Origin: an archaeon
Lineage (GTDB): Archaea > Nanobdellota > Nanobdellia > Pacearchaeales > GW2011-AR1
Direction: 5' to 3'
Assembly: GCA_018697035.1 (NCBI GenBank)
Contig: JABHSE010000004.1
Span: 259,300 to 323,299 of the forward strand
DNA: 64,000 nucleotides
The position numbers and the translations under genes were made by a program. Below the pieces are notes generated by a model. The model was not told where the DNA came from and did no database searches. It worked only from the letters and a program-made list of their open reading frames with translations. Below, piece after piece: positions 15,613 to 46,750 of this stretch; the first letter of the stretch is position 1, and every line of letters starts with the position of its first letter.

Positions 15613-16182
15613 TTATAAGGAAGATATATCCCACCCAGAATTAACAAGGTGCTTAAACCAGTGTTTTTGGTGGAATTCTGGAAGTCCAACCAAATCAATC
15701 AACACAACAGAAATATTATTAGAGATGTAATCAAAACTTCCAGAAAACTTTAAATTAATCTTCCCATTATTATCTCTAATAACGTTCATTGTACCTCTTT
15801 CAAGAATAAATTCTCCAGAATTTTCTCGAGAAAGGTAATAATCGAGAACCTCTTTTTTAAAATGGAACCTTTGGAGATTATTACAAACATCATCTCCATT
15901 TTTTGACCACAAATCTGTAAATGGACCTTTTGGTCTTCCAGTTTTATCGGATTCTTTTCTTTCCAGTTTTTTTCTTATGGCCCTTTTTTTATTTTCTGTA
16001 TGGGTCTTTACCGCATGACAAATTGCACATAAGGCTTGTATATTATCTGGATCATTAGTTCCTCCATCCCATTTAGGCAAAATATGGTCAAAATGAGTTA
16101 TTTTGGGAGTCAATTCTCTTGGACAATCTGCACATTTATTATTTTGTCTTTCTAATATCTTATTTTTTGGTATTCCTGCCAT
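15613..16182 (-). CDS. HNH endonuclease
   Basis: CADCPRE..HFDHILPKWDGGTNDPDNIQALCAICH is an HNH motif. The ATG at 16182 lies 19 nt after TTTTTAAGG. Confidence 0.75.
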   Translation of the reverse strand: MAGIPKNKILERQNNKCADCPRELTPKITHFDHILPKWDGGTNDPDNIQALCAICHAVKTHTENKKRAIRKKLERKESDKTGRPKGPFTDLWSKNGDDVCNNLQRFHFKKEVLDYYLSRENSGEFILERGTMNVIRDNNGKINLKFSGSFDYISNNISVVLIDLVGLPEFHQKHWFKHLVNSGWDISSL

Positions 16183-16211
16183 AAAAAACCAGCGAATCAA
16201 ACCTTAAAAAT

Positions 16212-16853
16212 TTATCCCCAGGACTTTCCCCATTTCATCGGAGTTCCCATAGGTGTTTTGGGTTCAGAGAGATTCCTAACCATTTCATCAATATCTCCCT
16301 CTATCTCTGCCTGTTTCTTTTCTTCTTCAACATCAAAATCATCTCTTTCATCTTCTATATCATCATTACATTTCCAGCAAACACCTTCGAAATTATATTT
16401 ACTCGGACGAAACCATTTTTTCTTGCATCTAGGACATAAATTTCTACGATATTTTGATTTCACAAAATGGCATCTAAAGCATAAGGTCTGAACAAAATCA
16501 AAAGCATAATAATCTTTTAGTGCTAATTCTTTCGTCTTCTCTTTGAGTTCAGGATGATCTCGCATATAAGCCCCAAGTTTCCCAACCTTAATATAACCTT
16601 TAGAGGTAGAAAAACCTCCGCTCTTAGTTAATGCGCAAGGAGGGAATGTGAAATTCATTTCCTCGGACATAGAAATAATTGAAACTTTTCTAAAATTACG
16701 AAGCATATAGGCTTTAAAGGATATTTTATGGTGAGGCGTTAACTTATTTGTAGAACCGCACCATTCACACCTATCTTTTATCTTTCCATCTTCTAGCGCT
16801 AACTTTTTTGCCTCTTGGAATTCTTTTGTTTCCCACGGCTTTCTCTCCGTCAT
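16212..16853 (-). CDS. HNH-like zinc-finger nuclease domain protein
   Basis: CEWCGS..LTPHHK and CFRCH, plus extra CxxC pairs and an acidic tail. Its promoter is paralogous to that of 15613-16182. Confidence 0.6.
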   Translation of the reverse strand: MTERKPWETKEFQEAKKLALEDGKIKDRCEWCGSTNKLTPHHKISFKAYMLRNFRKVSIISMSEEMNFTFPPCALTKSGGFSTSKGYIKVGKLGAYMRDHPELKEKTKELALKDYYAFDFVQTLCFRCHFVKSKYRRNLCPRCKKKWFRPSKYNFEGVCWKCNDDIEDERDDFDVEEEKKQAEIEGDIDEMVRNLSEPKTPMGTPMKWGKSWG

Positions 16854-16953
16854 AAAAAATCCACTCAATCAATCCTTAAATATCTGCTGAATCCCGCTAA
16901 AAAATTATTAAAGAGTTTTATTTCTCTCCCACCCTATGTCGTGGGCAAGCGAA

Positions 16954-18824: not shown

Positions 18825-20044
18825 TATCTCCAATCCTAAAAACCTACGCCTACCTGAAAAAAGATTCTCTCTTACTTTACAAGCGAAAAAAATACCTCTA
18901 CCTCTTCATCCTCCTTCCCTTAATTATAGCAACCCTTTTCCTCTTCGCACTCAACCCAAAAGACTACGACATCAAGGTAGGCATCTGCGACTTCGACCAA
19001 ACTGACATCTCAACCCAAGCCTTTCAAAATCTAAACGGCTTCAGTCCAATCATCCTAGAAAACAAAAACTGCTTAGAGAAAATGCAAGAACAAATCAAAC
19101 AAAGTAAAATAGATATAGGCTTAGAAATAGGAGAAGGCTTCACTCAAAACCTCGAAGAACTAAAACAATCAAAGTTAGTGGTATACTACGACAACACCGA
19201 CATAGCATTCGCCAATCTCATCTCGTGGAAAATCGATCAATCACTCCAACCATTCAAACGACAAATCATCGACAACCTAAACCAAGAACTAGACACCAAA
19301 ATCAACTCAGTCCGAAGCGGTGTTGACCTAGCACTAGAATTTTCCGACTTCAGCAAAACTCTCCAAAACAAAATCCAAGAAACTGACGACGACCTCAAAT
19401 CACTCGAAGAGATGAACACCGAATTCCTAACAAACCCAATATGGACAGATAAGCAACCAATCTACGACGAAGACCTCAAAAAAGATGCAGGCATAATCTA
19501 CATATTCCCAATCTTAGCAATCTTCATAATCCTAATGCTCAGCAGTACCTCAATCATCTACGACAAAAACTGCGGTTTCATTACAAGAGTTAAAGCATCA
19601 TCTTCCCCGATTTTTTACATCCTAGCCAAACTAATCTTCTTCACAGCTCTTACGGCAATCCAATTCGCGATCATCCTAATCCTATTCATGTTCTACGGTA
19701 CAAAATATGCAATCGACCCAGCAGCCATCCTTCACTTAATTCTCTTCATCGGAATCATCAACACAGCACTAGGCCTAATCATCGGACTAATCGCAAACAA
19801 CGAAGGAATTGCAGTCCTCTTTTCCCTAATGATATCATTCCCACTCATGCTAATATCCGGAATTTTCTTCCCAACCCAAGCTCTCCCAAAAACAATCCAA
19901 TGGATATCAACAATACTCCCTCTTCATTATCAAATAGCCGCGACAAAACAAACCCTCCTTTTCTCCCAAACATTCCAAACAACATGGGTATACCTCGCAA
20001 TAATACTCTTCGCAACAACCTACTACCTAATCAGAAAAAATTAA
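18821..20044 (+). CDS. ABC-2 type transporter permease
   Basis: One N-terminal TM segment, a large loop, then ~5 C-terminal TM segments. The start overlaps the ATPase stop by 4 nt. Confidence 0.7.
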   Translation: MISPILKTYAYLKKDSLLLYKRKKYLYLFILLPLIIATLFLFALNPKDYDIKVGICDFDQTDISTQAFQNLNGFSPIILENKNCLEKMQEQIKQSKIDIGLEIGEGFTQNLEELKQSKLVVYYDNTDIAFANLISWKIDQSLQPFKRQIIDNLNQELDTKINSVRSGVDLALEFSDFSKTLQNKIQETDDDLKSLEEMNTEFLTNPIWTDKQPIYDEDLKKDAGIIYIFPILAIFIILMLSSTSIIYDKNCGFITRVKASSSPIFYILAKLIFFTALTAIQFAIILILFMFYGTKYAIDPAAILHLILFIGIINTALGLIIGLIANNEGIAVLFSLMISFPLMLISGIFFPTQALPKTIQWISTILPLHYQIAATKQTLLFSQTFQTTWVYLAIILFATTYYLIRKN

Positions 20045-20085
20045 CCCATCAGTATCCTTAAATATCAGAGTCCCTTAACACTACG

Positions 20086-21255
20086 ATGCTGCGAAATTTT
20101 TTTAGAAAAAAACAGAAACCTAAAATAGAATTAGAGAAAGTAAACTTTAATGAAATCGAAGATTGGCTTGAAAATAAAAAAAACAAGCTTATCAAAAAAG
20201 AAGAGGAAATTTTCATTATAATAAAAAAACGGGCAAATATCTCAACTTCAAACATAAGCGGAAAAATAAAAAATCTCGAAGCAATAGATATCGAATCAAA
20301 AAAAGTCGAAGAAAGAGCAAAAATAATAGTCAGACAAAGCCTCGACAAATATTTAAGTTTCGTAGAAGTATTCACAAAAGAACTAACCGAAACAAAAAGA
20401 GAAAGACTTAGCAACTTCATCGAAGACACAAACCAAATATTCTCAGATTTTGACAAACGTTCCTACATATTCTACCAAAGAGCAAATTACCTAATCGGTG
20501 ACGAACTTGTAGCAATGAAAGAAGAAATTAACGACCTCTCAAAATATTTCGCTGACCTATTTAACAAAAATGAGAAAATCATGCATTCTCTCAACTTAAT
20601 ATCCTCCATTCAATTAAAATTAGCACAACTAAACGAAATCACCACAACCCTAAATGAAATTAATTCAGAAATAAAATACTTAGACGAAAAAACGACAAAA
20701 GAAAAAGAGAGAACAAACAATATTTTAAATGAAATTAAAAAAGTCAAAATTAGTGAAGATTATATGGAGAATCTAAAAAAGAGAAATGAAATTGAACTAG
20801 TTAAAAAACAACTAACAGATGACATCTCAAAACTAAAATCACTAATCGACTTCAAAAAAATCACCAACGCTTTCCATTCAGATGAAAATAAAATGAAAAT
20901 AATCAAAGACTACAAAGAAAACTTCCAAAGAAAATTTGAAGAGAATAAATGCGAAAATCTCCTAACCTTAATCAATGAAGCCGAACTAAATAATAGTTCC
21001 ATATCCAACAAAATAAAACAAATCAACAAAGAAAAAAATAAGATATCTGAAAATAAAAAACAAATAAAAAAGGATGAGGCCAAGAAGTTATTGGAAGAAA
21101 TAGAAAGAATAGGATCAAAACTTGAATATATGGCTATCGAAAAAATCAAAAACAGCAAAAGGAGTGATAAAATAAAAGAAAACAGGGAGGAAATCCGAGA
21201 ATCTGTATCACTCTATATAACTGAACTAGGCGGAATCTTGTCCCACCAAAATTAA
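20086..21255 (+). CDS. coiled-coil hypothetical protein
   Basis: K/E/N/I-rich heptad-like sequence throughout. TATA box CCTTAAATATC ~26 nt upstream. Confidence 0.55.
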   Translation: MLRNFFRKKQKPKIELEKVNFNEIEDWLENKKNKLIKKEEEIFIIIKKRANISTSNISGKIKNLEAIDIESKKVEERAKIIVRQSLDKYLSFVEVFTKELTETKRERLSNFIEDTNQIFSDFDKRSYIFYQRANYLIGDELVAMKEEINDLSKYFADLFNKNEKIMHSLNLISSIQLKLAQLNEITTTLNEINSEIKYLDEKTTKEKERTNNILNEIKKVKISEDYMENLKKRNEIELVKKQLTDDISKLKSLIDFKKITNAFHSDENKMKIIKDYKENFQRKFEENKCENLLTLINEAELNNSSISNKIKQINKEKNKISENKKQIKKDEAKKLLEEIERIGSKLEYMAIEKIKNSKRSDKIKENREEIRESVSLYITELGGILSHQN

Positions 21256-21287
21256 AAATAAAAAAACTAAAATCTAATCAAACAATC

Positions 21288-21497
21288 CTAATTTCTAGGG
21301 TTATTCTTCTTAAAACAATCCTGACAAAAAACATCTCTGCCTTCAGTAGGTTTGAAAGGCACTTCACATTCTTTCTTACATGCTGTACAGATTGCCTTGT
21401 GCTTCTCTTGAGGACCATTATTGAAATTGTTCCGTCCACCAAAATTGCCTCGTCCACCAGAATTATTGTTCCGGTTATCGAATCTTCTATTTTCCAT
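21288..21497 (-). CDS. CxxC-x17-CxxC zinc-ribbon protein with an RGG/N-rich N-terminus
   Basis: CTACKKECEVPFKPTEGRDVFCQDC matches the CxxC-x17-CxxC domain pattern. Preferred over the overlapping frame 21278-21556. Confidence 0.65.
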   Translation of the reverse strand: MENRRFDNRNNNSGGRGNFGGRNNFNNGPQEKHKAICTACKKECEVPFKPTEGRDVFCQDCFKKNNPRN

Positions 21498-21610
21498 ATT
21501 ACTTTTTCTCCTTTCAACTTATCAACATCAGAAAAAAAGCACACTGACTTTCGCAAAATTCCATAACATCTAAAAATAACACCTTCTATGGGTTTAAAAG
21601 TTTATGTAAT

Positions 21611-22366
21611 CTACTTCAAACCTACCCTTCCCCGCTGCCAATCATCAATAATCCTAATCGCGCACCTATCCTCATCCACAAAACCACCCTTCAAAAGCCA
21701 ACCCTTTTTCTTACCAATTGCCAAAAACACATCGTAAACACTATCTCCATCTTCAACCTCACAACCATAAAATTTCTCAAGTATACCCCTATCTTTCTTC
21801 ATAATAAACTCCACAATCTTCAAAGCAACCTTTTCCGGATTCCGAATCTTATGAGGATCCTTAGAAGCAGTCAAACCAATACTAATCTTATCATCCCCAG
21901 CAGGAATAACACCAGGCGAATCCATAATCCTCAACTTCCCACTCCGAATCCACTCCGTCTTCCGCGTCGTCCCACTAACACTCTTCACCTTAACTCCAGC
22001 ACCTGGCACCAAAGCATTAATCAAACTAGACTTCCCAGCATTAGGATAACCAACAACTCCAACCCGCAAACTCTCCCTCTTCCAGCTATCAGACATATTC
22101 TCAAGTCCCTTCTTCAACTCCTTAATACCTCTCCTCTTCAAAGCCGAAACAAAAAAACCATCAGCATAATCCTTCTTCAAGCTCTTCAAATCTTCAACAC
22201 CAATCAAATCACACTTATTAAAAACATAAACCAATCGCGTCCCCATCTTCTCAACCTTCGAAACAATCTCCGAATTAGCAGCAATCCCAGGCATCCTAGC
22301 ATCAAGCACAAGCAACACAACATCCGAGTTCCGAAGAACATTCAACACAACAGGCCAAAATCCCAT
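21611..22366 (-). CDS. circularly permuted GTPase (YlqF/RbgA/Nog2-like ribosome biogenesis GTPase)
   Basis: G4 NKCDL precedes G1 GYPNAGKSSLIN, and DSPG follows. Start at the ATG at 22366 (MGFWPV). Confidence 0.75.
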   Translation of the reverse strand: MGFWPVVLNVLRNSDVVLLVLDARMPGIAANSEIVSKVEKMGTRLVYVFNKCDLIGVEDLKSLKKDYADGFFVSALKRRGIKELKKGLENMSDSWKRESLRVGVVGYPNAGKSSLINALVPGAGVKVKSVSGTTRKTEWIRSGKLRIMDSPGVIPAGDDKISIGLTASKDPHKIRNPEKVALKIVEFIMKKDRGILEKFYGCEVEDGDSVYDVFLAIGKKKGWLLKGGFVDEDRCAIRIIDDWQRGRVGLK

Positions 22367-22414
22367 AATAAACAAAATAACCAGGAAATTATAAACCTAT
22401 CCCAAACAGTAAAC

Positions 22415-22441
22415 CTTAAAAACAATGTTACCACTACAAAA
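22415..22441. repeat. 27-nt motif CTTAAAAACAATGTTACCACTACAAAA (partner at 34265-34291)
   Basis: 24 of 27 nt are identical to 34265-34291. Both lie at the left edge of an SD-led island and upstream of a minus-strand promoter. Confidence 0.55.
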
Positions 22442-22661
22442 TGCAACATTAATACAACGACATACCAAAAACAGAACCACAGATAACAATTCAAAGAAAT
22501 TTGAATTAAGTAATCCTCAAAGAAATATGTCAAAAAGAAAGGAAATACCTATTGTACCAAGGAGAAATATCTCAAAATAGGCCATTTCAAAAGAAGATAA
22601 AATAGATTCATCTATGTCTATGATAAATATATAATAATAAAATTTAACAATAGGAGGAAAT

Positions 22662-22937
22662 ATGTCCATAATGAACGTAGCAATAGTCCTCATAGAGGCC
22701 GCCATCTTGGCATTCCTAACAGAAAGAGGAATAACGTTATTCCAAAATAACATTACTCCTGAAACAAAAAAACTCAGGATAGTCCAACAGCTCTATACTT
22801 TGGACCCATCAGAACCTCGAAAGATGGAGTTAAGGAAATACACCCGCAAACTAAAAGATTACAAATACACCCTTGCCCTATTACTCACAATAGTAATAAT
22901 AACAATAGGGATAACAGTTTACGCTATAACCAGTTAA
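22662..22937 (+). CDS. island 1: small two-TM membrane protein
   Basis: SD TAGGAGG 6 nt before the ATG. Hydrophobic N- and C-terminal segments. Confidence 0.55.
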   Translation: MSIMNVAIVLIEAAILAFLTERGITLFQNNITPETKKLRIVQQLYTLDPSEPRKMELRKYTRKLKDYKYTLALLLTIVIITIGITVYAITS

Positions 22938-23022
22938 AGGAGGTGCCTGACAAAAACACTGTACAACCGTACAAAACCGTACAACAAAACATTAATTTAT
23001 CTTAAAAGAAAAGGAGTACAAC

Positions 23023-23424
23023 ATGAACTTTATCATCGAATTTTTCATCAGCATAGGTTTCATCGCAAGAACAAAACCGATCATGATCGATTCAAAATTG
23101 GCCGGATTAGCAAAACTCCAAAGGGAACTGAGTGAAGCGAATAGAATCAACGCCAGACTTGCTGCAGACAAAATGAGAGAGGAAGAACGAGCTGAGAAAG
23201 CAGCGAAAAAGGCAGCGGAAAAAGAAGCAGCCGAACTCAAAGCCAAAATTGAAGCTCTTGAAAAAGAAAGCAAGGCAAAACAGGATAGTCTTGAGGCAGG
23301 TCGTAACACAGAAAGACGTAATGCCGCCAAGTTCATTACAACTGCAAAAGAAGAAGCGGAAAAGGCAAGTATTATATCTGGGAACCTTGTTGCCATCACT
23401 ACCAAACGCATCGCAACAAAATAA
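23023..23424 (+). CDS. island 1: membrane-anchored coiled-coil protein
   Basis: SD AAGGAG, an N-terminal hydrophobic segment, then an A/E/K-rich helix. Confidence 0.55.
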   Translation: MNFIIEFFISIGFIARTKPIMIDSKLAGLAKLQRELSEANRINARLAADKMREEERAEKAAKKAAEKEAAELKAKIEALEKESKAKQDSLEAGRNTERRNAAKFITTAKEEAEKASIISGNLVAITTKRIATK

Positions 23425-23498
23425 CCCCTGCCGGAGCAGCCATATCTTAGACAAACAAGATCCCTGGCTGCCTTAATCTTAACCGGGAGGTAATTATT

Positions 23499-23654
23499 AT
23501 GTCAACATGCAAAAAAAACTGCCGACGCACACAAAACTGCCCGAAAAAATGCCGGCCAGTTTGCGTAAAGAAATTCAGAACAGAGAAAATCTCTCAGAAA
23601 AAGAAAAGACAAAGCATGAGAGCATTTTTGAAAAAAATTACAACAAACCCATAA
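23499..23654 (+). CDS. island 1: 51-aa Cys-rich basic peptide (not in the ORF track)
   Basis: SD GGGAGG 9 nt upstream. My translation: MSTCKKNCRRTQNCPKKCRPVCVKKF... Confidence 0.35.
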   Translation: MSTCKKNCRRTQNCPKKCRPVCVKKFRTEKISQKKKRQSMRAFLKKITTNP

Positions 23655-23667
23655 GAAAGGAAACATT

Positions 23668-24303
23668 ATGAATTTCGAAAGAAAAATCGAAAGCATATTT
23701 GATCAGGTAGAAGCCATTTGGCCCATGATTAAGGCAATGATCGAATCTGGACAACTCACCGAAGAAGCGGTCACAGAACTTCTTGACGGACCCTATGAAG
23801 AATTGGTTGCCACATACCGGCCCCTGCTTCCCATCCTTCCCATGATCATCTCCAAACTCGTCATGGAATTCCAACCCATGGTCCTTCCCGTAAGAAAACT
23901 CAAATTCCAACTCCAGTCGAATCCGGCATGGAAGAAAATGCAGAGTGACAACTACACTCTTAAAGCTGAAACCCGCAAGGAAATCTTTGCCGCTTATATG
24001 AGTAAGGATTTCACAAGGGAAGAAGCCTGGGCAATGATGATGGAAGATACCACACCCGTCAAACCGGCTCAAGCCTCCAATGGAAATGCATTCCTTAAAG
24101 GATACAAAGCCGCTGCCGAATCTTCCAAAGAAATCTTGGGCGATAAAAAGAAAATGGCTGCCCTCACAGAACTCCTGGATAGCGTTAAAGAAATGATAAA
24201 AGAAGTCAAAAAAACCCAGGAAAAACCGGAAACTCAACCCGTCACTTTCCCAGAACGGGAAGATGATGAGCTTGAAAAAACTGATCCTGATCAGGAAGAA
24301 TAG
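23668..24303 (+). CDS. island 1: hypothetical protein
   Basis: 211-aa ORF with the RBS context GAAAGGAAACATTATG, which is shared with 24392. Confidence 0.55.
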   Translation: MNFERKIESIFDQVEAIWPMIKAMIESGQLTEEAVTELLDGPYEELVATYRPLLPILPMIISKLVMEFQPMVLPVRKLKFQLQSNPAWKKMQSDNYTLKAETRKEIFAAYMSKDFTREEAWAMMMEDTTPVKPAQASNGNAFLKGYKAAAESSKEILGDKKKMAALTELLDSVKEMIKEVKKTQEKPETQPVTFPEREDDELEKTDPDQEE

Positions 24304-24391
24304 GTAAAACTACCAAACTTGGAGCATGGCTAACAATAGCATCGCTCCAAGCCAAAACCATAAACAACAAACAACCAGGAAAGGAAACATT

Positions 24392-24661
24392 ATGAAAATC
24401 ATGATTGTAGGACCAACCGGAACAGTCATCCCAGTATACCTCGAAGAAGGCTGTGAAAATTGCCCAAAACGGGAACTCTGTCTTTTTCAATCTCTTGCAG
24501 AAGAAGCCATGGAACTTATGGAAATCCTGGAACTTATGGTAAAAGAAATCAGGGGAAATTCCTTGAGTAGTAGCACCTCAAAGTGTAACACCTGCTGGAT
24601 AAAAGGCAAATGTCTTATGGAATCTCAGGTAAGAGAGGCCGACAGAAGCACCATCCATTAG
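24392..24661 (+). CDS. island 1: small Cys-containing hypothetical protein
   Basis: The internal ATG with GAAAGGAAACATTATG is preferred over the track start at 24326. CENC..C and CNTC..C motifs. Confidence 0.45.
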   Translation: MKIMIVGPTGTVIPVYLEEGCENCPKRELCLFQSLAEEAMELMEILELMVKEIRGNSLSSSTSKCNTCWIKGKCLMESQVREADRSTIH

Positions 24662-24675
24662 CCCCTGATTCCATC

Positions 24676-24714
24676 CCGCGCGCAGCAACTTCCCAACATT
24701 CCCGCTGCGCGCGG
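24676..24714. terminator. GC-only 11-bp inverted repeat CCGCGCGCAGC-N17-GCTGCGCGCGG
   Basis: Read directly. It begins 15 nt after the stop of 24392-24661. No T-run follows, so a terminator role is uncertain. Confidence 0.4.
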
Positions 24715-24788
24715 ACCAACTAAAAAAATAAAGGAATTTAAATTCCTAGACATAAAAAAATTTCTTAAAACAAAAAGGAGAAAATTTC

Positions 24789-25409
24789 ATGGAATTCAAA
24801 ATCAAGAGCACGAGAAAAGATATCATCTGGGGAGACAAAGTCTTCGAAAGCGATATCACAAGACAAGCCCAGGAACTAATTAACACCAATGGATTCGCAG
24901 GAACATACATCAGGCATCTCAGCACAGGCAGATCAGAAACAGAAAGCATTAACCTTGCCCTCCTCTGTCTAGCAGAAGAAAACCAAAAAATTGTGGGAAC
25001 AAGCCTCAATCTTCTCATGAAGGATGAATTTTGCAAAAGAGTCCTTCCCCGTTTACCTATGGGAAGAATTCTCTACGAAATGCTCAAGGCACCACACATA
25101 TTCAACATATCAAGCGAAATCATCGAGACAGTGGAATTCCCAAAAAAATATATCGGTGTAGATACATGGAGCAACGGGTTATTCGGTTGGAGATACAGAG
25201 AAGAGAAACACGTGGTGAAAACAAATGAGAAGATTACAAAGATCGGCAGCGAAATTTTGATAGAACTCCAACCAGATTTCGTAGCCAACTTAGGATCTAT
25301 AAACATTAGATACGGACCCTTCAATATCGAGAACATAAGAAGAATGGTAGATAATGGACGAACACCTACGCCTTTCTGGAAAGAACTTTTCAAACACATC
25401 TTCTATTAA
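24789..25409 (+). CDS. island 1: hypothetical protein
   Basis: 206-aa ORF with SD AAAGGAG ~9 nt upstream. No family recognised. Confidence 0.55.
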   Translation: MEFKIKSTRKDIIWGDKVFESDITRQAQELINTNGFAGTYIRHLSTGRSETESINLALLCLAEENQKIVGTSLNLLMKDEFCKRVLPRLPMGRILYEMLKAPHIFNISSEIIETVEFPKKYIGVDTWSNGLFGWRYREEKHVVKTNEKITKIGSEILIELQPDFVANLGSINIRYGPFNIENIRRMVDNGRTPTPFWKELFKHIFY

Positions 25410-25602
25410 TAAATAACAAAACAAAAGGAGAAACAAAAAAAGACAAACATCGTGGAATCTGCAATCAACTAAACCAAAGACTGCAGAAAAACAATCCAAC
25501 CCTCACCCATCCACTAGGTGAAATAAAATAAAAAACAAAAGGAAAATATAGTATCATGCGAATACATAGATAAAAAAACATAAATATTCCTGCCGGTCCC
25601 GA

Positions 25603-25638
25603 GATGGCGCACAATGTATCCAATACATATGCGCCATC
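25603..25638 (+). terminator. hairpin GATGGCGCA...TGCGCCATC preceding the T9 run
   Basis: A 9-bp GC-rich stem plus inner pairing, followed by the T-run at 25656-25664. Confidence 0.5.
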
Positions 25639-25655
25639 CAAAACTCTCCAATATC

Positions 25656-25710
25656 TTTTTTTTTGGCCAAACATAGGTATTCCAATATACTATATTACAC
25701 TATATACATC
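25656..25710 (+). repeat. conserved T-run/AT-rich module, copy 1 of 4
   Basis: TTTTTTTTTGGCCAAACATAGGTATTCCAATATACTATATTACACTATATACATC aligns with 35582-35636, 46823-46876 and 47244-47300. Confidence 0.7.
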
Positions 25711-25882
25711 AAACAAAACAATCACTCACTAAAACCTCATTTTCGCCCGCTACCACTCGCCAATCAACCAGCACCCCTCGTCAGTCAAACGCCTTATAAA
25801 ACAAATCATACTCCAAAATATACTTATCATCTCACACTTCTATATAAATAAAAAACAACTCCAAAGACCAAGGAGGTGAAAA

Positions 25883-26026
25883 ATGATAGTTAAACTACAA
25901 GTTTTATACGACGACCTTAACCCAAACGGCGGAAGAGGACGAGACAAGATAATTCGTGAGATTGATAGAGCAATGGACGGCGCAACATGGGAAGCAAGCG
26001 GCGAAGGTTGGATAGCTAGAAGATAG
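25883..26026 (+). CDS. 47-aa hypothetical peptide (not in the ORF track)
   Basis: Strong SD AAGGAGGTG 5 nt upstream. My translation: MIVKLQVLYDDLNPNGGRGRDKIIREIDRAMDGATWEASGEGWIARR. Confidence 0.35.
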   Translation: MIVKLQVLYDDLNPNGGRGRDKIIREIDRAMDGATWEASGEGWIARR

Positions 26027-26115
26027 TTATGGCAAAAAACTCTACTCGATCTATGACTGCCGACAAGGCCATTAGACACGAATACAAACCCAATTTATTT
26101 TTTATTTAATTTATC

Positions 26116-26742
26116 CTAATCCAATGTCTCCAAACTCTTCACAAAAATTTCCTTCTCCAAATCCTCTCTCAACAACTGATAATCACTCCCAATAATCTCA
26201 CCCTTTCTTCCAACAATATCAACATACTCTAATTCAGAAGTAGTCCGAGCCTTAACCAATATCAACAAAAACGAATGCAACTTCCGACTCCCGACCCCTA
26301 ACTTCTGACTCCCAACCTTAGTAACATGCTCCAACGTCACAGAACAAACCTTCTCAAACTCACACCTAACTCCAAACTTCTTCCCAATTCTCTTCACAGC
26401 ATCCTCAAACCCCTCTCCCTGAATCATCCTCCCAGCCGGGAGCGACAACTTACTAAAGAACGGCCTCTTCTTCCTATCAATCAAAAAAACCCTTCCATCC
26501 CTCTCAATCGCAACCAAAACAACCGGCATCACAAAACGCTTATCCGAAACATAGGGAATCTCCTTCTCTCCCTCTTCCGTCAAAATATACTCATCACTAT
26601 CCTTCATTAAAATTCCCTCGCTCACCAGCTTCCCCAAATGATAACTAAGCTTATTCGACCGAACTCCAACCCCCCGCTCTATCTCACTAAACCGCAGCCT
26701 ACTCTCACACAGAAAACATTCCAAAATCTTATCCTTCATCAA
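26116..26742 (-). CDS. ArsR-like wHTH fused to a degenerate Nudix domain (putative ligand-sensing regulator)
   Basis: N-terminal LRFSEIERGVGVRSNKLSYHLGKLVSEGIL is a wHTH. The Nudix-like box PAGRMIQGEGFEDAVKRIGKKFGV lacks the RExxEE glutamates. Confidence 0.55.
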   Translation of the reverse strand: MMKDKILECFLCESRLRFSEIERGVGVRSNKLSYHLGKLVSEGILMKDSDEYILTEEGEKEIPYVSDKRFVMPVVLVAIERDGRVFLIDRKKRPFFSKLSLPAGRMIQGEGFEDAVKRIGKKFGVRCEFEKVCSVTLEHVTKVGSQKLGVGSRKLHSFLLILVKARTTSELEYVDIVGRKGEIIGSDYQLLREDLEKEIFVKSLETLD

Positions 26743-26788
26743 ATTTTTTGAGCAACTCTTTATATATAAGAACTCATATACTCTACTT

Positions 26789-27358
26789 ATGGATATACCA
26801 ATAAGCCAAAAGATTTCTCAAATAAAAGAAACCCACAAAATGATAAAAGAAATAAAAGAATTCCCAAATCTAGAAAAGTCAAAACCTACATCAGACAAAA
26901 CCCACCAAATCGCCGTAACAGGCATAATAAGAAACAAGGAAGGCAAATATCTAATCTGCAAACGCTCCCCAAATGAAAAAGCCTTCCCAAATAAGTGGTG
27001 CGTCCCAGGTGGCAAAATAGAAACAAAAGATTTCATAAATACCCCGAAAGACACACAAGACCACTGGTTTGATATCTTCGAAAAAACTCTAATGAGAGAA
27101 GTCTTAGAAGAAACAAGCCTAACAATAAAAAACATAGGCTACATATCAAACCTAGCATTCATCCACCCAAACGGCTCCTCATCAATGATAGTCTCCCTCC
27201 ACGCCGACCACGATTCCGGAATTGTAAAACTCCAAGAAGAAGAACTAACGGATCACGCCTGGGTAACAATAGAAGAAGCAAAAGAGTTTAATTTGATTGA
27301 AAACATACTAGAACAAATCATTGCAACAAACGACAAGCTCACTCCCCGAAATTCCTAA
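26789..27358 (+). CDS. Nudix hydrolase
   Basis: WCVPGGKIE...MREVLEETSL, a Nudix box with an insertion. Confidence 0.7.
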   Translation: MDIPISQKISQIKETHKMIKEIKEFPNLEKSKPTSDKTHQIAVTGIIRNKEGKYLICKRSPNEKAFPNKWCVPGGKIETKDFINTPKDTQDHWFDIFEKTLMREVLEETSLTIKNIGYISNLAFIHPNGSSSMIVSLHADHDSGIVKLQEEELTDHAWVTIEEAKEFNLIENILEQIIATNDKLTPRNS

Positions 27359-27941
27359 TCATGCTCTCAAGCTTCTTGATATTCAAAGCCTTCCCATCAT
27401 CTCTCTTTGTACGAGCAATGTCAGTAAAATACTCGTGCCCACAAATAAAGTCCAATTGAAACTTCAAAAAACCCAAACCATATGGAAGCCCAAGCTCTTT
27501 CCGAAGCAACTCTCCTTTATCAAAAAAACATTCTCGCCCCAAGTTATCCAAATCGCAATCACACATCAGCTCTCCCAAATAATTACCAGGATTCTGAGGC
27601 ATAACAGTCGCCATAATAATATCACAACACATCTCAACCCTCTCACTAGAATATCCCAATCCAGGCAAATACCCTCTCATAAATTCCGCAGTCCGAATCT
27701 CGTTATTAGTCCTACCAGGAATCACAATATGATCATGAATCAAAGCCCCACTCTCCAAACAAAATCGCTCCTCATAAGACAACCCCAGCTCAACCGCGTA
27801 ACCACGAGCAGCCGAAAAAGCCTCAAACTCATGCTCAAAGTTATGGTAACAAAGTTTCGGAGCACTCCCCATCCCAAGCTCAACAAGATTCCCAAGTCTA
27901 ACCATATCATCCCTCGCAATCAAATTCTGTTTCGCTTTCAT
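27339..27941 (-). CDS. HD-domain phosphohydrolase
   Basis: HNFEHEFEAF .. GALIHDH (H..HD) motifs. Confidence 0.65.
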   Translation of the reverse strand: MKAKQNLIARDDMVRLGNLVELGMGSAPKLCYHNFEHEFEAFSAARGYAVELGLSYEERFCLESGALIHDHIVIPGRTNNEIRTAEFMRGYLPGLGYSSERVEMCCDIIMATVMPQNPGNYLGELMCDCDLDNLGRECFFDKGELLRKELGLPYGLGFLKFQLDFICGHEYFTDIARTKRDDGKALNIKKLESMIRNFGE

Positions 27942-28033
27942 ACTATATCAATAATATCTATATACAAGAAACATCTCATAGAAAATTACAGATTAAACGC
28001 AAGATTTATAAAATAAATAAGATTTATCCTAGC

Positions 28034-29026
28034 ATGAAATGTCTAGAGAATAAAAATACCAAAGAAATAATTTTAGACATCAAAGATAAAAAAATCCTCT
28101 CAGTCATTTCACAAAATGCAAGAATGCCACTAACTAGGGTCGCAAAAAAAGTAGCCCTCTCAAGAGATTCCATAAACTACAGAATCAAGAACTACGAAAA
28201 ACAAAGACTCATTAAAGGATACCGAACCATAATCAACATCGCCCACTTCGGCTACGACAACTACCATCTCTTTATAAAACTAAACAATCCCTCACCAGAA
28301 CTAGAAAAAAAAATCATCGACAAACTAATCCAAAAACCATTTATAAGAGCCGTCCTAAAATTTAGCGGAAAGTTCGATCTGGAAATAGCAATAGTAGCAA
28401 ACAGTATCTTAAACCTTGACAAGATACTAGATGAGATAAACAACAGCAGCGAGCAAAACATCCTCGATTACGAATTATTAGCAATATCAAAAACATTCAC
28501 AACAAAATCCTTACCAATGAATCAATCCAAACACGAAAAATCCAACAAGACGAAAATAAAAAAGATAGACAAAAAGGATATCCAAATATTAAACTTACTA
28601 AGTAAAAACGCGAAACTTCCCATCTTTGAATTAGCCGAGAAACTAAAACTCTCAACGGACGCAATCATCTACAGGATAAAAAAATTAAAAGAATCAGGCA
28701 CAATAATAAAATTCATCCCAGTGATAAACTTCGATGCTCTCGGATACAACCTCCACGTCGTCCTTCTAAACACAAATATCTCCAAAGAAAAAGATGAGAA
28801 AAATCTATCCAACTTTTTATCAAAAAATGAAAACACTCTATGGGCAGTAAAGGCAATCGGGAAATTCAACGTCATAATTTATCTACTAACAAAAAACGCA
28901 GGAGAACTTCAAAAAACCTTACTAGACTTAAGGAAATTCCTCCCAGGACGACTAAATAAACAAGAACTCCTAATCGCCCATGAACAATTTAAATATGATT
29001 ATTTCCCAGAAGAATTAATAAAATAA
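28034..29026 (+). CDS. tandem Lrp/AsnC-family transcriptional regulator (two HTH-plus-RAM-like modules)
   Basis: DIKDKKILSVISQNARMPLTRVAKKVALSRDSINYRIKN recurs as DKKDIQILNLLSKNAKLPIFELAEKLKLSTDAIIYRIKK. Confidence 0.75.
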   Translation: MKCLENKNTKEIILDIKDKKILSVISQNARMPLTRVAKKVALSRDSINYRIKNYEKQRLIKGYRTIINIAHFGYDNYHLFIKLNNPSPELEKKIIDKLIQKPFIRAVLKFSGKFDLEIAIVANSILNLDKILDEINNSSEQNILDYELLAISKTFTTKSLPMNQSKHEKSNKTKIKKIDKKDIQILNLLSKNAKLPIFELAEKLKLSTDAIIYRIKKLKESGTIIKFIPVINFDALGYNLHVVLLNTNISKEKDEKNLSNFLSKNENTLWAVKAIGKFNVIIYLLTKNAGELQKTLLDLRKFLPGRLNKQELLIAHEQFKYDYFPEELIK

Positions 29027-30239: not shown

Positions 30240-30980
30240 TTAACTTTTATTAATAGAAACAGAAACGGGGTTCTCAAAAACACGATCAAAAAATCCATCA
30301 ATATCTGAATTATAACTACACCAATTATTTTTATTTTTCTTAAGGGAATCTAAGTTAATATAATTATCAGGATATAAATCATGTCCACTAGCCCAATTTG
30401 TTTTATATTCCCAATCTCCATGTTTAGCAACAAATATATGATTTCTAGGACGAACACTTCCATGCCACAATTGATCCGATGTAGGATCAGCGACAATGAA
30501 ACCCTTTTCTTCTCCAAGTAAAAACGGGAAGGCTGTATAACAATGATCATGATCACTATCCAAAACACTAGCATTGGGATAACCCATACCCAAACCAGCC
30601 ACCATTAAATTCTGAGCAGAGGGGCAACATTCATAACTAGGAAACGTAGAATCGTTTTTTTTACCAAGAATATAATGCTTATACATTAAATCATAAATAA
30701 TTTTTACATGTTCAAAAAGCTCCTCCCTATCTCCTAATTGCATAGCAGAAAAACCTGGAGAATCTCTATATTTCTCCAAAATTTCTTCTATATTAGATTT
30801 ATTACTGCTTTCTCCATAATTAATTACTCCATTATTAGAAACATCTATATGTCTAGGGATATCTTGATCATTACTAAAGCTCTTTAATTCAAAATTATTC
30901 TTTATATCGAACCTCTCCTCATACGCCCGCGTCCAAATAGAAAACGGATTTATTTCATCATGCACTTTATCTTCAATCAT
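30240..30980 (-). CDS. hypothetical protein with a transglutaminase-like Cys-His-Asp pattern; compositional outlier
   Basis: ECCPSAQNL..(~35 aa)..HDHCYTAF..(~17 aa)..VADPTS resembles a transglutaminase-like cysteine peptidase core. It lacks the local C>>G skew. Confidence 0.4.
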   Translation of the reverse strand: MIEDKVHDEINPFSIWTRAYEERFDIKNNFELKSFSNDQDIPRHIDVSNNGVINYGESSNKSNIEEILEKYRDSPGFSAMQLGDREELFEHVKIIYDLMYKHYILGKKNDSTFPSYECCPSAQNLMVAGLGMGYPNASVLDSDHDHCYTAFPFLLGEEKGFIVADPTSDQLWHGSVRPRNHIFVAKHGDWEYKTNWASGHDLYPDNYINLDSLKKNKNNWCSYNSDIDGFFDRVFENPVSVSINKS

Positions 30981-38423: not shown

Positions 38424-40286
38424 ATGTCAACCCATAATCCTTCATCTCAGGAAAAATCAGTCGAACAAAACTTAGCAAAAGATTACGTCCCAAAATCCAA
38501 ACCAGGAAACCTCCCAATATCAAATCAGGTAGACCAGGCCATGAAAAAGAAAATGGAAAAAACCCAAAAGGAAATAGAAAAATTCAAAATAGAATTCCTA
38601 AAGAAATACAAAAATACTCAAAGCGTCGGAATCATTCCACAACAAGCCGCTAAAAAAATAGAAGAAGAATACGAAATCTCCGAAGACGACTCCAAGCGAG
38701 AACTAATCCACATCTTAACAATAGTCCCAGAATCCCAATATAAAAAAATCGGGCAAATAAAACTCGACGCGATAGAAATAGCAAAAAAAATCAACGACAA
38801 ACTCTGGGTGCACATAATGACCCCAATAGATTTTTGGAACCTAGGTCTTGACTCAAAATTCGAAGTAATGGAAGCCCTAGCAATGTCATATCCGCTTCAC
38901 GATAAAGGATTCTTGGGAAGCGTCCGAGTAGCTCAAATCCATAAATCTCTAGTCTTGAAAAAATTCGAAAAATACGTCACATCCTACGTAATCGGTGGCT
39001 CCCTAACAAGAGGTGAAACAATCAAAACTTCCGACATAGACGTCTTCATAGTAATCGACGACACCGACGTAAAACGAATGCCGAGAATGGAACTTAAAGA
39101 AAAACTCCGAGGCATAATCTATTCATATATAGGAGAAGCCGAAGCAATATCAGGAGTTAAGAACAAACTATCTCCACAAATCTACTTAATGACAGAATTC
39201 TGGGAAGCCGTAAAAGACGCACACCCAGTAATGTTCTCCTTCATCCGAGACGGCATCCCACTTTACGACCGAGGCGCATTCCTACCTTGGAAGTCACTTC
39301 TAAGAATGGGAAAAATCAAACCATCCCCCGAGGCAATCGATATGTTCATGAGCTCCGGCGACAAAATCAAAGAAATCATAGACAAAAAACTCTTCGACAT
39401 AGCAACACTAGATCTCTTCTGGGGAATCTCAACACCGACACAAGGACTTCTAATGCTTTACGGCCAAGCACCAGGAAACGTCTACGATACAGTCAAAGCC
39501 TTCAGAGAAACATTCGTAACAAAAGAAAAACTAATTGAGAAAAAATACGCCGACATCCTAGATAATATCGCAATCAAACACTTCAAAGCAATGGAACACG
39601 GCAAAATAAAACCAGGCGACATTAAAGGAGAACAAGTTGACAAACTAAGAAAGGATGCGCTAGATTACATCGCAAGACTAAAAGAACTACGAGAACAAAT
39701 AGAAAAACGAATCCAGGAAAAATCAATCGAACAAATATACAAAGACACATTCGGCATGGTAGGCAGTCTCCTAAAGAAAAAATCCGAAGCAACAATAATA
39801 AGCGAATTCGATAAAAAGATAATCCAAAAAGGAAAATTCCCTCCAAGATTCCTAACAAATCTAAAATTCATAGCAAAAACCAGACGAGACATAGCAAAAA
39901 CTCAATTAGAAAAGAAAAAGACAACAAAGAAAAAAGACAATCTAACATTCAAACAATCTCAAAACGTAGACCAAGCAAGGAAACACGCAGCCGAAATAAC
40001 AACAGCCCTAATCGAACACACACAACGTTGCGAACTAGCATCCCTAGAAAAATCCCGCTTCCAAATCAAATCCCACGACACACAAGCCGAAGTCTTCTTC
40101 CTAAAAAACACATTCCTAGTTCAACCAAATCAAATTCAGAAAATATCAAAAGACAAACTAATCAAATCAACACCAAAAGAATTACAAGAACAAATAACAA
40201 CGCAAGGAAATAAAGAAACAAAAATAGACCACAAATCTCTATCAACCCTACATAAAATCTTCGGCGAATTCGATTTAGTTTATTAA
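38424..40286 (+). CDS. nucleotidyltransferase (pol-beta fold) domain protein with long helical extensions
   Basis: GGSLTRGETIKTSDIDVFIVIDD is a GS..DxD NTase motif. Confidence 0.6.
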   Translation: MSTHNPSSQEKSVEQNLAKDYVPKSKPGNLPISNQVDQAMKKKMEKTQKEIEKFKIEFLKKYKNTQSVGIIPQQAAKKIEEEYEISEDDSKRELIHILTIVPESQYKKIGQIKLDAIEIAKKINDKLWVHIMTPIDFWNLGLDSKFEVMEALAMSYPLHDKGFLGSVRVAQIHKSLVLKKFEKYVTSYVIGGSLTRGETIKTSDIDVFIVIDDTDVKRMPRMELKEKLRGIIYSYIGEAEAISGVKNKLSPQIYLMTEFWEAVKDAHPVMFSFIRDGIPLYDRGAFLPWKSLLRMGKIKPSPEAIDMFMSSGDKIKEIIDKKLFDIATLDLFWGISTPTQGLLMLYGQAPGNVYDTVKAFRETFVTKEKLIEKKYADILDNIAIKHFKAMEHGKIKPGDIKGEQVDKLRKDALDYIARLKELREQIEKRIQEKSIEQIYKDTFGMVGSLLKKKSEATIISEFDKKIIQKGKFPPRFLTNLKFIAKTRRDIAKTQLEKKKTTKKKDNLTFKQSQNVDQARKHAAEITTALIEHTQRCELASLEKSRFQIKSHDTQAEVFFLKNTFLVQPNQIQKISKDKLIKSTPKELQEQITTQGNKETKIDHKSLSTLHKIFGEFDLVY

Positions 40287-45800: not shown

Positions 45801-46196
45801 ATGCAAAAAGAAAATGAAACACCCAAAATCGCCCTACTTGCAATGGGACTAGTATTCGCAATCTTCTCACCCCTCTGCGCCGGAAATTCTGAAATCACAA
45901 GAATTTTCGGAGTCCCAATAGTAGCATTCGGCATAGCGGGATACTCTTTTATGATCCTGAGCACCTTAGCAAGCACCATTGGACCAAAACCCACAACCTC
46001 AAAAACAATCTATTCAACCTTAGTCACAGGAGGATTCTTTTTCACTATCTTCCTGATCTACAGAAGCATCGAAAATGCTTTCCTATGTCCCCTATGTATG
46101 GGAGTATTAATGATCAACATAGTACTATTCGTCATGTTAATTTGGCCACTACCAACAACACAAAAACAAGCAAACAAATCAGCAACTCCTTCCTAA
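45801..46196 (+). CDS. island 3: VKOR-like (vitamin K epoxide reductase family) four-TM protein
   Basis: The loop Cys plus FGVPIVAFGIAGY and the TM CxxC (CPLCMGV) match VKOR hallmarks. SD AGGGAG upstream. Confidence 0.5.
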   Translation: MQKENETPKIALLAMGLVFAIFSPLCAGNSEITRIFGVPIVAFGIAGYSFMILSTLASTIGPKPTTSKTIYSTLVTGGFFFTIFLIYRSIENAFLCPLCMGVLMINIVLFVMLIWPLPTTQKQANKSATPS

Positions 46197-46288
46197 AAGA
46201 AGGTCTATATATCAACAAGTCCCAAAAAGGAGGCAGGGACAAACTCGCACTTAAACTTAAACTTAATTTTTAAAAAAAGGAAATTGTT

Positions 46289-46750
46289 ATGAAAAAAATT
46301 CTATCAATGATCGCCCTTATGATCCTCTTGGGAACAACCACAGTTCAAGCCCAAGAAAGAGGTAATTATCTCCAAAACGCCGGAGATTCCATCATTACTT
46401 CAGTCAAGGCAATACCTATTCAGGCACTCAACACTGACTATATTGCGGATGAGACAAAGGAACACGGATTTCCGGGAACAACAACAAGTGTTGCAAATAA
46501 CGCAACTCGACCAGTCATTAAACTGGCAAACGGAATATGGGATGCCCTGTCCAACCAAAACACCAGCGGCAACACGGAAGACATTGGAGCATTCAATGAA
46601 TTTGCAGAAAGCAGATTTATTGGATACCTAAAAAATGCAGTCGTATATGGAGGAATCGTATTGGTAACAGGCGGCACCGGAGTAGTAGCGATTATAGCAG
46701 CAACCGGTGGCTTCATGCACAGTATGGGAGTTAACCAAGAGAGACCATAA
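46289..46750 (+). CDS. island 3: secreted/membrane protein
   Basis: Signal peptide MKKILSMIALMILLGTTTVQA and a C-terminal Gly-rich hydrophobic segment. SD AAGGAAA upstream. Confidence 0.55.
   Translation: MKKILSMIALMILLGTTTVQAQERGNYLQNAGDSIITSVKAIPIQALNTDYIADETKEHGFPGTTTSVANNATRPVIKLANGIWDALSNQNTSGNTEDIGAFNEFAESRFIGYLKNAVVYGGIVLVTGGTGVVAIIAATGGFMHSMGVNQERP

What the first reader, a model, noticed from the sequence alone, without database searches (positions are those of the whole stretch)
22415..26026. Island 1: 3.3-kb block of SD-led ORFans with foreign composition, resembling a virus or plasmid remnant
The island carries seven or eight top-strand ORFs (22662, 23023, 23499, 23668, 24392, 24789, possibly 25883). 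All have GGAGG-type Shine-Dalgarno sequences 5-9 nt upstream, whereas surrounding genes have a TATA box ~20-27 nt from the ATG and appear leaderless. In the one 60-nt line I counted (23101-23160) the top strand has G 16 versus C 13. A native top-strand gene line (38461-38520) has G 6 versus C 17. The products are small membrane, coiled-coil and Cys-rich proteins with no family I recognise. The block contains a GC-only hairpin and ends with a hairpin plus the conserved module. I saw no integrase, capsid or replication gene.
Basis: partly seen in the sequence, partly recalled or inferred. Interest (0 to 1): 0.62.

Follow-up and report, generated by a model that had tools for sequence, protein, structure and literature searches.

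The report
Highly expressed ORFan gene cassette
A 3.3-kb block of six unknown genes in a tiny marine archaeon is a later-arriving, self-contained gene cassette, the most heavily transcribed stretch of its 64-kb neighbourhood, with no sign of viral or plasmid origin.

Summary
The island is real, but its limits are 22,409-25,740, not 22,415-26,026. The 47-aa gene at 25,883 and its upstream region are native and conserved in relatives.

Four of six related Pacearchaeota/Woesearchaeota genomes carry other or no DNA at this site. One (L004) has an orthologous cassette sharing the ends, isl2 and a degenerate isl3-like stretch.

All six ORFs have Shine-Dalgarno-like motifs, against 11 of 55 native genes. 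Their fourfold-degenerate sites do not match the host's extreme strand bias.

No virus, plasmid, integrase or defence family matched any ORF. No att repeats, circular form or excess DNA copy number was seen.

New here: in three metatranscriptomes, RNA contigs over the 64-kb window fall almost only on this island and two sister cassettes. They stop just before the T-run.

The island shares a promoter-plus-leader left end and a hairpin, T-run and promoter-like module right end with at least four other cassettes carrying unrelated cargo.

Best reading: a laterally acquired, strongly expressed accessory operon for small membrane, coiled-coil and Cys-rich proteins. It belongs to a narrow family of self-expressing cassettes. 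The virus or plasmid remnant reading has no positive support.

The parts
22409..22661 (+). Left end of the cassette. It holds an archaeal BRE/TATA-like element (TTAAAAA at 22416-22422) inside the conserved motif CTTAAAAACAATGTTACCACT (22415-22435). An A-rich leader of about 215 nt follows, ending in AGGAGG and the ATG.
   Evidence: Homology to relatives stops at 22407/22408. The motif occurs twice in the window, against 0.08 expected by chance. The leader aligns with those of island 2, L004a and L004b. An RNA contig starts at 22493. No conserved fold was found.
22662..22937 (+). isl1: 91-aa protein with two hydrophobic segments (residues 1-22 and 68-91). SD is AGGAGG.
   Evidence: Covered by an RNA contig at 22628-23016. 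No family hit.
22959..22990 (+). Three phased CCGTACAA repeats ahead of isl2. RNA depth steps up here, so an internal promoter or regulator site is possible.
   Evidence: Sequence read directly. The X9 contig starts at 22974 with depth 10-14, against 3-6 elsewhere.
23023..23424 (+). isl2: 133-aa protein with a short hydrophobic N-terminus and a Lys/Glu/Ala-rich, coiled-coil-like body. It is the most abundant transcript and the only cargo clearly shared with the orthologous cassette in L004.
   Evidence: 58-59% aa identity to L004:1535-1945. dN/dS is 0.17. Only two members were found in the 5.8-billion-protein search. RNA contigs are present in X9 and X10.
23436..23471 (+). Hairpin between isl2 and isl3. 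It is probably a partial terminator or a stabiliser of the isl2 transcript.
   Evidence: z = -3.3. It is conserved in L004a with one compensatory outer pair, G-C to A-T (sequences). The X9 isl2 contig ends at 23436 and RNA depth drops after it.
23499..23654 (+). isl3: 51-aa, very basic (pI 10.9) peptide with five Cys.
   Evidence: An STCK(K)NC...C..VC-like stretch is present in L004a, but without a canonical start codon.
23668..24303 (+). isl4: 211-aa all-helical protein with an acidic tail. It is a true ORFan and the most compositionally deviant gene (A4 0.19, C4 0.45).
   Evidence: Only the protein itself was found in the 5.8-billion-protein search. AF2 pLDDT is 46, all helices. Composition. 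RNA contig at 23735-24243.
24392..24661 (+). isl5: 89-aa protein with six Cys in two CxxC...C groups, resembling a zinc ribbon.
   Evidence: No significant family hit.
24676..24714 (+). Hairpin with an 11-bp stem made only of G-C pairs, lying inside the transcript between isl5 and isl6.
   Evidence: -24.2 kcal/mol, z = -6.6. RNA contig 24664-24922 runs through it. No GTTRRRY/RYYYAAC cores are visible in the sequence.
24789..25409 (+). isl6: 206-aa alpha/beta protein belonging to a rare archaeal family with no known fold match.
   Evidence: Eight clusters among 1.84 billion representatives. AF2 pLDDT 74.5, pTM 0.72. No Foldseek match in PDB or BFVD. Homologues lie in cellular gene contexts.
25603..25664 (+). 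Terminal hairpin (25603-25638) followed by a T9 run (25655-25664). This is the terminator of the cassette.
   Evidence: Fold z = -3.0. The last island RNA contig ends at 25649. Sister cassettes end in different strong hairpins followed by a T-run.
25654..25709 (+). Conserved right-end module: T-run, then a BRE/TATA-like box, then CCAATATACTATATTA. It is shared with the copies at 35582, 46821 and 47244 and with copies in L004 and L052.
   Evidence: It is absent from the empty sites of L001, L002, L003 and L005.
25740..26026 (+). NOT part of the island. This is the native upstream region, with tandem ~21-nt ACCACTCNCCAATCA repeats, plus the native 47-aa SD-led gene isl7.
   Evidence: 72-82% nt identity in L001, L002, L003 and L005. 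isl7 is 66-79% aa identical in L002 and L005. The gene is transcribed.

Best explanation
Island 1 (22,409-25,740) is a laterally acquired, chromosomally fixed accessory operon in a marine Pacearchaeota-type DPANN archaeon (assembly GCA_018692495.1). It is one member of a small family of self-expressing gene cassettes.

Proposed mechanism:
- Transcription starts at the TATA-like box in the conserved left motif. The start is inferred at about 22,445, and RNA is shown from 22,493.
- Transcription runs through an A-rich leader and six genes. Each gene is translated from a Shine-Dalgarno site rather than by the leaderless route used by most native genes.
- A hairpin after isl2 (and possibly an internal promoter before it) makes isl2 the dominant transcript.
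- Transcription ends at a hairpin plus T9, just before a conserved promoter-like module.

The products are:
- a two-segment membrane protein;
- a protein with a short hydrophobic N-terminus and a coiled-coil-like body;
- a basic Cys-rich peptide;
- an acidic helical protein;
- a six-Cys zinc-ribbon-like protein;
- a rare alpha/beta protein.

I infer, without direct evidence, an envelope-associated accessory function.

Shown: the boundaries, absence from most relatives, compositional disequilibrium, SD usage, strong in-situ transcription, single-copy fixation and the shared ends. Inferred: the exact transcription start, the terminator function, the protein roles, and the route of acquisition. 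For the route I favour recombination into a hotspot, perhaps using the shared ends as homology.
For: - Boundaries and absence. At this site L005 has about 80 bp, L002 about 760 bp and L003 about 890 bp. L001 has IMPDH plus an HTH-membrane gene.
- Hotspot. L004 holds a different, skew-free foreign block of about 6-7 kb at the same site, plus an orthologous cassette.
- Composition. The island's fourfold sites lie far from native + genes, outside all native chunks of equal size. Cassette 3 and isl7 are transcribed yet native-like, so expression alone does not explain the deviation.
- SD use. 6/6 island ORFs against 11/55 native genes.
- Transcription. 14 of 24 RNA contigs over the 64 kb fall in the 3.3-kb island (binomial p about 1e-12; contigs are not independent). 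All are 100% identical and none lies on the flanking native genes at 20,000-22,400 or 26,320-29,000. Coverage ends at 25,649.
- Fixed and single-copy. A 10,320-nt unitig spans both junctions at flank depth in four DNA runs. All 23 contigs read have the same context.
- Shared ends with unrelated cargo. This holds for island 2, L004a and L004b, and for the leader end in L058. L058 and L004b share a site and leader but carry different cargo.
- Real genes. isl2 has dN/dS 0.17. The isl6 family is conserved and gives a confident model.
Against: - An orthologous cassette at the same site in L004 (isl2 plus a degenerate isl3-like stretch) allows ancient residence followed by loss in the other relatives. 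The GTPase tree is unresolved.
- isl2 is saturated at synonymous sites (dS 1.67) yet non-native in composition in both lineages. Codon selection on a very highly expressed gene could explain this as well as transfer could.
- No mobility machinery, target-site duplication or empty-site variant was found, so movement is inferred only from comparisons.
- The RNA evidence comes from unstranded assembled contigs, not read counts.
- The envelope-function claim rests only on hydrophobic segments and composition.
Confidence: 0.6

Rival explanations
1. Ancestral native operon. The cassette has sat between the GTPase gene and isl7 since before the window and L004 lineages split, evolves fast, and was lost or replaced in the other relatives. 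Its odd synonymous composition would reflect codon or transcription-linked bias in a very highly expressed unit, not foreign origin.
For: L004 has the same ends, isl2 (58% aa) and the conserved inter-gene hairpin at the same right-hand junction. The island is very strongly transcribed. Its skew has the same sign as native genes.
Against: It is absent from four relatives that are at least as close as L004 by GTPase path length. isl1 and isl4-isl6 have no counterpart in L004. Transcribed cassette 3 and isl7 keep native composition. isl6's relatives are scattered in unrelated archaea.
Confidence: 0.2
2. Degraded remnant of an integrated archaeal virus or plasmid. The small membrane, Cys-rich and coiled-coil ORFans would be surviving accessory or structural genes.
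For: The block consists of ORFans with deviant composition at an insertion hotspot. Small zinc-ribbon-like and membrane proteins are common in archaeal viruses (general knowledge). One isl6 homologue lies two genes from a KilA-N protein.
Against: No capsid, Rep, ATPase or integrase gene was found. No PHROGs, INPHARED, PLSDB, IMG/VR or BFVD match was found. No att repeats and no circular or empty-site forms or extra depth were seen. The ends are shared with cassettes carrying VKOR or SPFH-like cellular cargo. Expression is high and operon-like rather than showing decay. DPANN viruses are poorly sampled, so the database absence is weak evidence.
Confidence: 0.12
3. Integron-type gene cassettes (a CALIN), with the variable hairpins acting as attC sites.
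For: Each cassette ends in a different strong hairpin. Cargo is variable and ORFan-rich. Integrons and CALINs are reported in DPANN archaea (PMC9668308).
Against: No tandem attC array is present and the cassettes stand alone at separate sites. Each has its own promoter and leader. No R''/R' core motifs flank the hairpins. The ten genes flanking the island that I scanned have no recombinase domain. The conserved ends have no counterpart in integrons.
Confidence: 0.04

Closest known systems
Horizontally acquired genomic islets / flexible-genome hotspots in prokaryotes
   Same: A strain-variable block lies between conserved flanking genes. Relatives carry different DNA at the same site. Composition is deviant and the content is ORFan.
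   Different: It carries its own conserved promoter-leader and terminator-module ends, which recur at other sites with other cargo. It is also the most transcribed stretch of the region.
Putative mobile promoters (Nijveen, Matus-Garcia and van Passel 2012, PMC3575422)
   Same: Homologous upstream non-coding regions sit in front of non-homologous genes, within and between genomes.
   Different: Similarity here is lower than their cut-off of at least 80% over at least 50 nt. Island 1 versus island 2 gives 87% over only 30 nt, and island 1 versus L004a gives 76% over 113 nt. The units here also share a 3' end. The organism is an archaeon.
Integron gene cassettes and CALINs, including archaeal ones (Ghaly et al. 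2022, PMC9668308)
   Same: Short, same-orientation, mostly unknown-function genes form exchangeable units. Each unit ends in a hairpin whose sequence varies.
   Different: There is no attC array and no IntI or attI. The cassettes carry their own promoter and are dispersed singly. The conserved linear ends are not structure-only sites.
Integrated archaeal viruses and plasmids (integrase-bearing elements at tRNA genes)
   Same: A compact block of small ORFans of foreign composition sits in an archaeal chromosome.
   Different: There is no integrase, Rep or capsid gene, no tRNA target and no att duplication. At 3.3 kb it is too small for a known archaeal virus, and no episomal form was seen.

Membership tests
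Integrated virus / provirus remnant | At least one viral hallmark gene (capsid, packaging ATPase, Rep/primase, integrase) | tested here: not met
   No Pfam or PHROGs hit below E = 0.009 for any of the seven ORFs. No PADLOC or NCBIfam hit reached significance.
Integrated virus / provirus remnant | Homologues on viral genomes or viral contigs | tested here: not met
   tblastn against 50,697 phage records found nothing for isl1, isl4, isl5 and isl6. IMG/VR pattern scans found nothing for isl1, isl2, isl4, isl5 and isl6. BFVD fold search of isl6 gave no match. The end motifs are not on viral contigs.
Integrated virus / provirus remnant | att direct repeats at the ends, or excised/circular and empty-site forms | tested here: not met
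   Only a 7-8 nt TAAA(A)CCT similarity was found at the two junctions. There are no joints, and one unitig spans both junctions at flank depth. Contigs can miss rare forms.
Plasmid remnant | Replication, partition or transfer gene, or homologues on plasmids | tested here: not met
   No Pfam hits. tblastn of isl4 and isl6 against PLSDB gave no match.
Integron cassette / CALIN | Two or more attC sites in tandem array, with the R''/L''/L'/R' structure | tested here: not met
   Hairpins exist. They are not arrayed between single genes, and no RYYYAAC/GTTRRRY cores are seen in the sequence. No attC covariance model was available, so the check was by eye.
Integron cassette / CALIN | Integron integrase and attI in the genome | not testable with these tools
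   The ten genes flanking the island that I scanned have no recombinase domain.
Putative mobile promoter (PMP) | At least 80% identity over at least 50 nt upstream of non-paralogous genes (PMC3575422) | tested here: not met
   Island 1 versus island 2 gives 87% over 30 nt. Island 1 versus L004a gives 76% over 113 nt. The concept fits but the strict criterion does not.
Horizontally acquired genomic islet | Absent from the syntenic site of close relatives | tested here: met
   Absent in L001, L002, L003 and L005. Partly present in L004.
Horizontally acquired genomic islet | Composition out of equilibrium with the host genome | tested here: met
   Fourfold sites have GC4 0.42 against 0.29, AT4 skew 0.25 against 0.65, and GC4 skew -0.53 against -0.75 +/- 0.07.
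Shared-end cassette family (this genome and L004 lineage) | Left motif plus leader at the 5' end, and hairpin, T-run and module at the 3' end, in the same orientation | tested here: met
   Left motif at 22415 and module at 25654. The same pair of ends is found in island 2, L004a and L004b.

The most novel reading that the evidence does not exclude
Island 1 would be the largest and most highly expressed member of a previously undescribed cassette system in ultra-small DPANN archaea. Each unit carries its own strong promoter and leader at one end and a terminator plus promoter-like module at the other. That would allow ORFan envelope genes to be dropped into, or swapped at, a few chromosomal hotspots and be expressed at once. 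Functionally this resembles an integron, but it has no attC sites or integron integrase. The shared ends would serve as portable homology or recombination sites.
Probability: 0.28. Interest if true: 0.72.

Novelty: new variant of a known kind. Interest (0 to 1): 0.5.

Why it matters
DPANN archaea have tiny genomes and depend on hosts, and most of their genes are unassigned. This island is a strain-specific set of six unknown genes that dominates the transcript signal of a 64-kb neighbourhood in situ. That makes these proteins, isl2 above all, prime candidates for whatever these cells invest in most at their surface.

The shared promoter-leader and terminator-module ends suggest a simple way for reduced genomes to acquire new genes and express them immediately.

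The genome's extreme strand bias also gives a built-in clock. It ranks the cassettes by residence time: island 2 youngest, island 1 intermediate and cassette 3 fully ameliorated.

Tried and rejected
- Family and profile searches (Pfam, PHROGs, PADLOC, NCBIfam) gave nothing significant.
- A PDB sequence-profile search with the isl6 family gave nothing.
- The AF2 model of isl4 from a single sequence was too poor to search with (pLDDT 46).
- The isl6 model was usable, but Foldseek found nothing in PDB or BFVD.
- Phage and plasmid tblastn searches and IMG/VR scans were all empty.
- The isl6 family alignment was too divergent for a pattern scan.
- A genome-contig scan for isl2 found nothing.
- The leader as a structured RNA or riboswitch: rejected. 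There is no consensus structure, single-sequence z is -1.4 and there is no Rfam hit.
- The conserved short ORF in the leader (MLPLQN...): rejected, because island 2 has ATT in place of the ATG.
- Target-site duplication: not found.
- One IMG/VR hit to the left motif was a chance match.
- The GTPase tree was unresolved.
I therefore could not count copies of the ends or look for recombinases across the genome.


Full report
**Context**

The window comes from a marine DPANN archaeon. An identical sequence lies on contig JABHKL010000002.1 of assembly GCA_018692495.1 and on 22 other contigs, all in the same context. The closest genomes found through the flanking GTPase are labelled Pacearchaeota or Woesearchaeota (74-82% aa identity, L001-L006).

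The whole window shows an extreme strand bias. In native + strand genes, fourfold-degenerate sites are A .585, C .256, G .036, T .123. Native - strand genes show the mirror image, with coding-strand GC3 skew of +0.6 to +0.9. This bias is useful because DNA that has not resided long in the genome stands out.

**Checking the observation**

The seven + strand ORFs are present at the stated coordinates.

SD-like motifs precede all six island ORFs, against 11 of 55 native genes (p = 2e-4). Most native genes have a TATA box about 27-35 nt before the ATG and appear leaderless.

The GC-only hairpin is real (z = -6.6), as is the terminal hairpin (z = -3.0). The repeated module is also real, with four copies.

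Two corrections are needed.

- Boundaries. blastn against relatives places the island at 22,409-25,740. Homology to L001 and L002 stops at 22,407/22,408, just past the GTPase promoter. It resumes at 25,740/25,741.
- The last ORF. The 47-aa ORF at 25,883 and its upstream region are native. That region carries tandem ~21-nt ACCACTCNCCAATCA repeats. The ORF is conserved, with its SD, in L002 and L005.

**Is it foreign?**

At the syntenic site the relatives differ.

- L005 has about 80 bp.
- L002 has an unrelated 222-aa gene.
- L003 has an IMPDH remnant.
- L001 has an intact IMPDH plus an HTH-membrane gene, all with native skew.
- L004 has about 9.4 kb. This includes a skew-free foreign block (a UvrA-like gene, a zinc-ribbon repeat protein and others). 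It also includes a 1.56-kb cassette with the same left end, an isl2 homologue (58% aa), a degenerate isl3-like stretch, the same inter-gene hairpin and the same module.

The site is therefore a hotspot.

The island's fourfold sites (A .362, C .321, G .099, T .218) differ from native genes in A/T skew, G/C skew and GC4. No native chunk of equal size reaches its GC4 skew.

High expression does not explain the deviation. Cassette 3 (45,801-46,750) and isl7 are also transcribed, yet their composition is native.

**Gene content**

- isl4 has no relative other than itself among 5.8 billion proteins.
- isl2 has one relative, the L004 copy. dN/dS is 0.17, so it is a real protein under purifying selection.
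- isl6 belongs to a rare family, with eight 50%-identity clusters among 1.84 billion representatives. Its members lie in other archaea among ordinary genes: next to IspH, an amidohydrolase, a cytidylate-kinase-like gene and FKBP, or PMSR. One lies two genes from a KilA-N protein.
- The isl6 AF2 model is decent (pLDDT 74.5, pTM 0.72). It has no structural neighbour in PDB or BFVD.
- isl1 has two hydrophobic segments. isl3 is a basic five-Cys peptide. isl5 has six Cys in two CxxC...C groups. isl4 is helical and acidic.

**Virus or plasmid?**

Nothing positive was found.

- No hallmark domains.
- No hits in phage or plasmid records, IMG/VR or BFVD.
- The end motifs are not on viral contigs.
- No flanking repeats.
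- In four DNA runs of the source study, one 10,320-nt unitig crosses both junctions at the same depth as the flanks, with no alternative joints.
- Four lower-depth runs also show the island contiguous with its flanks.

**Transcription (new)**

Three metatranscriptome runs from the same study were laid over all 64 kb.

- On 20,000-29,000, all 16 contigs fall between 22,493 and about 26,320. Of these, 14 lie on the island and 2 on isl7. All are 100% identical and none lies on neighbouring native genes.
- Elsewhere, real contigs lie only on island 2 (2 contigs), cassette 3 (4 contigs), 59,434-59,676 and 62,346-62,487.
- Fourteen of 24 contigs in 5% of the window gives binomial p of about 1e-12. 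Contigs are not independent and depth is only approximate.
- Coverage ends at 25,649, five bases before the T-run.
- The isl2 segment is the deepest (10-14). Its contig ends at 23,436, the first base of the conserved hairpin.

The island is therefore an active operon, not a decaying remnant.

**Shared ends**

The 21-nt left motif occurs exactly twice in the window, at 22,415 and 34,265, against 0.08 expected by chance.

The ~250-nt left regions of island 1, island 2 and two L004 cassettes align. The alignment runs from a BRE/TATA-like box, which matches the native promoter pattern, through to the SD. No conserved RNA fold is present.

Each of those four cassettes ends in a different strong hairpin, a T-run and the module.

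L004b is a minimal unit with a single 65-aa membrane ORF. At the same site a related strain (L058) has the same leader but a 315-aa SPFH-like gene and other cargo.

L052 has two modules upstream of ppsA, like window copies 3 and 4.

The family is narrow. In GTDB representatives and JGI metagenomes the left motif is found only in the window organism, the L004 lineage and L058.

**Interpretation**

The best reading is a laterally acquired, fixed, strongly expressed accessory operon belonging to a small family of self-expressing cassettes (confidence about 0.6).

The main rival is an old native operon with differential loss, whose composition is shaped by expression (0.2). The L004 orthologue and the saturated dS of isl2 keep this alive.

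A virus or plasmid remnant (0.12) cannot be excluded, because DPANN viruses are poorly sampled, but it has no positive support.

Integron membership fails on attC arrays, on promoterless cassettes and on the integron features described in PMC9668308. The putative mobile promoter concept (PMC3575422) fits the left end in spirit but not by its numerical criterion.

**Limits**

RNA evidence is from unstranded assembled contigs. Protein functions are inferred from composition only.

Noticed in passing
window 1-64000: The strand asymmetry at neutral sites is extreme. Native + strand genes have fourfold sites of 58% A, 26% C, 3.6% G and 12% T, and - strand genes mirror this. The bias makes different gene callers disagree: the ENA calls place - strand ORFs across the island.
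   Followed up: partly
window 26115-26890: The wHTH-Nudix gene (26116-26742, - strand) lies on a 776-bp segment missing from L005 and L002, where the flanks are separated by well under 100 bp. This is a second presence/absence difference right next to the island, although the gene's skew is native.
   Followed up: partly
window 25883-26026: isl7 is a conserved 47-aa SD-led microprotein. It is transcribed in situ and preceded by two or three tandem ~21-nt ACCACTCNCCAATCA repeats that are conserved in relatives. The repeats may be a regulator binding array.
   Followed up: partly
window 15613-16868 and 30240-30980: These - strand genes have much weaker GC3 skew (0.16, 0.36 and 0.40) than native - genes (0.6-0.9). 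The first is an HNH-domain gene. They are probably other recent acquisitions.
   Followed up: no
L004 3760-9900: The relative L004 carries a block of about 6-7 kb beside the same GTPase gene. It holds a UvrA-like ABC protein, a 658-aa zinc-ribbon repeat protein and small membrane proteins, and shows no strand skew at all. It looks like a recent foreign insertion at the same hotspot.
   Followed up: partly
window 59434-59676: One metatranscriptome contig covers the gap just downstream of the GluRS gene. This may be a small RNA or a small gene.
   Followed up: no
window 45801-46876: Cassette 3 holds a VKOR-family membrane protein and a 153-aa secreted-looking protein, both SD-led, and ends in a hairpin, T-run and module. 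It is transcribed, but its composition is native and it has no recognisable left motif. It may be an old, ameliorated cassette.
   Followed up: partly
window 24789-25409 and P0002, P0004-P0010: The isl6 family (about 200-320 aa, motifs DLRWLD, YIRHLSTGHSETE, IVGVTLEGL, ELQPxFVAxLGS) gives a confident AF2 model with no PDB or BFVD neighbour. It may represent an undescribed fold.
   Followed up: partly
L003 4400-4560 (locus coordinates, approximate): A 55-aa remnant of IMPDH survives at the hotspot in L003. L001 has the intact gene there, which suggests IMPDH was the ancestral occupant of the site.
   Followed up: no
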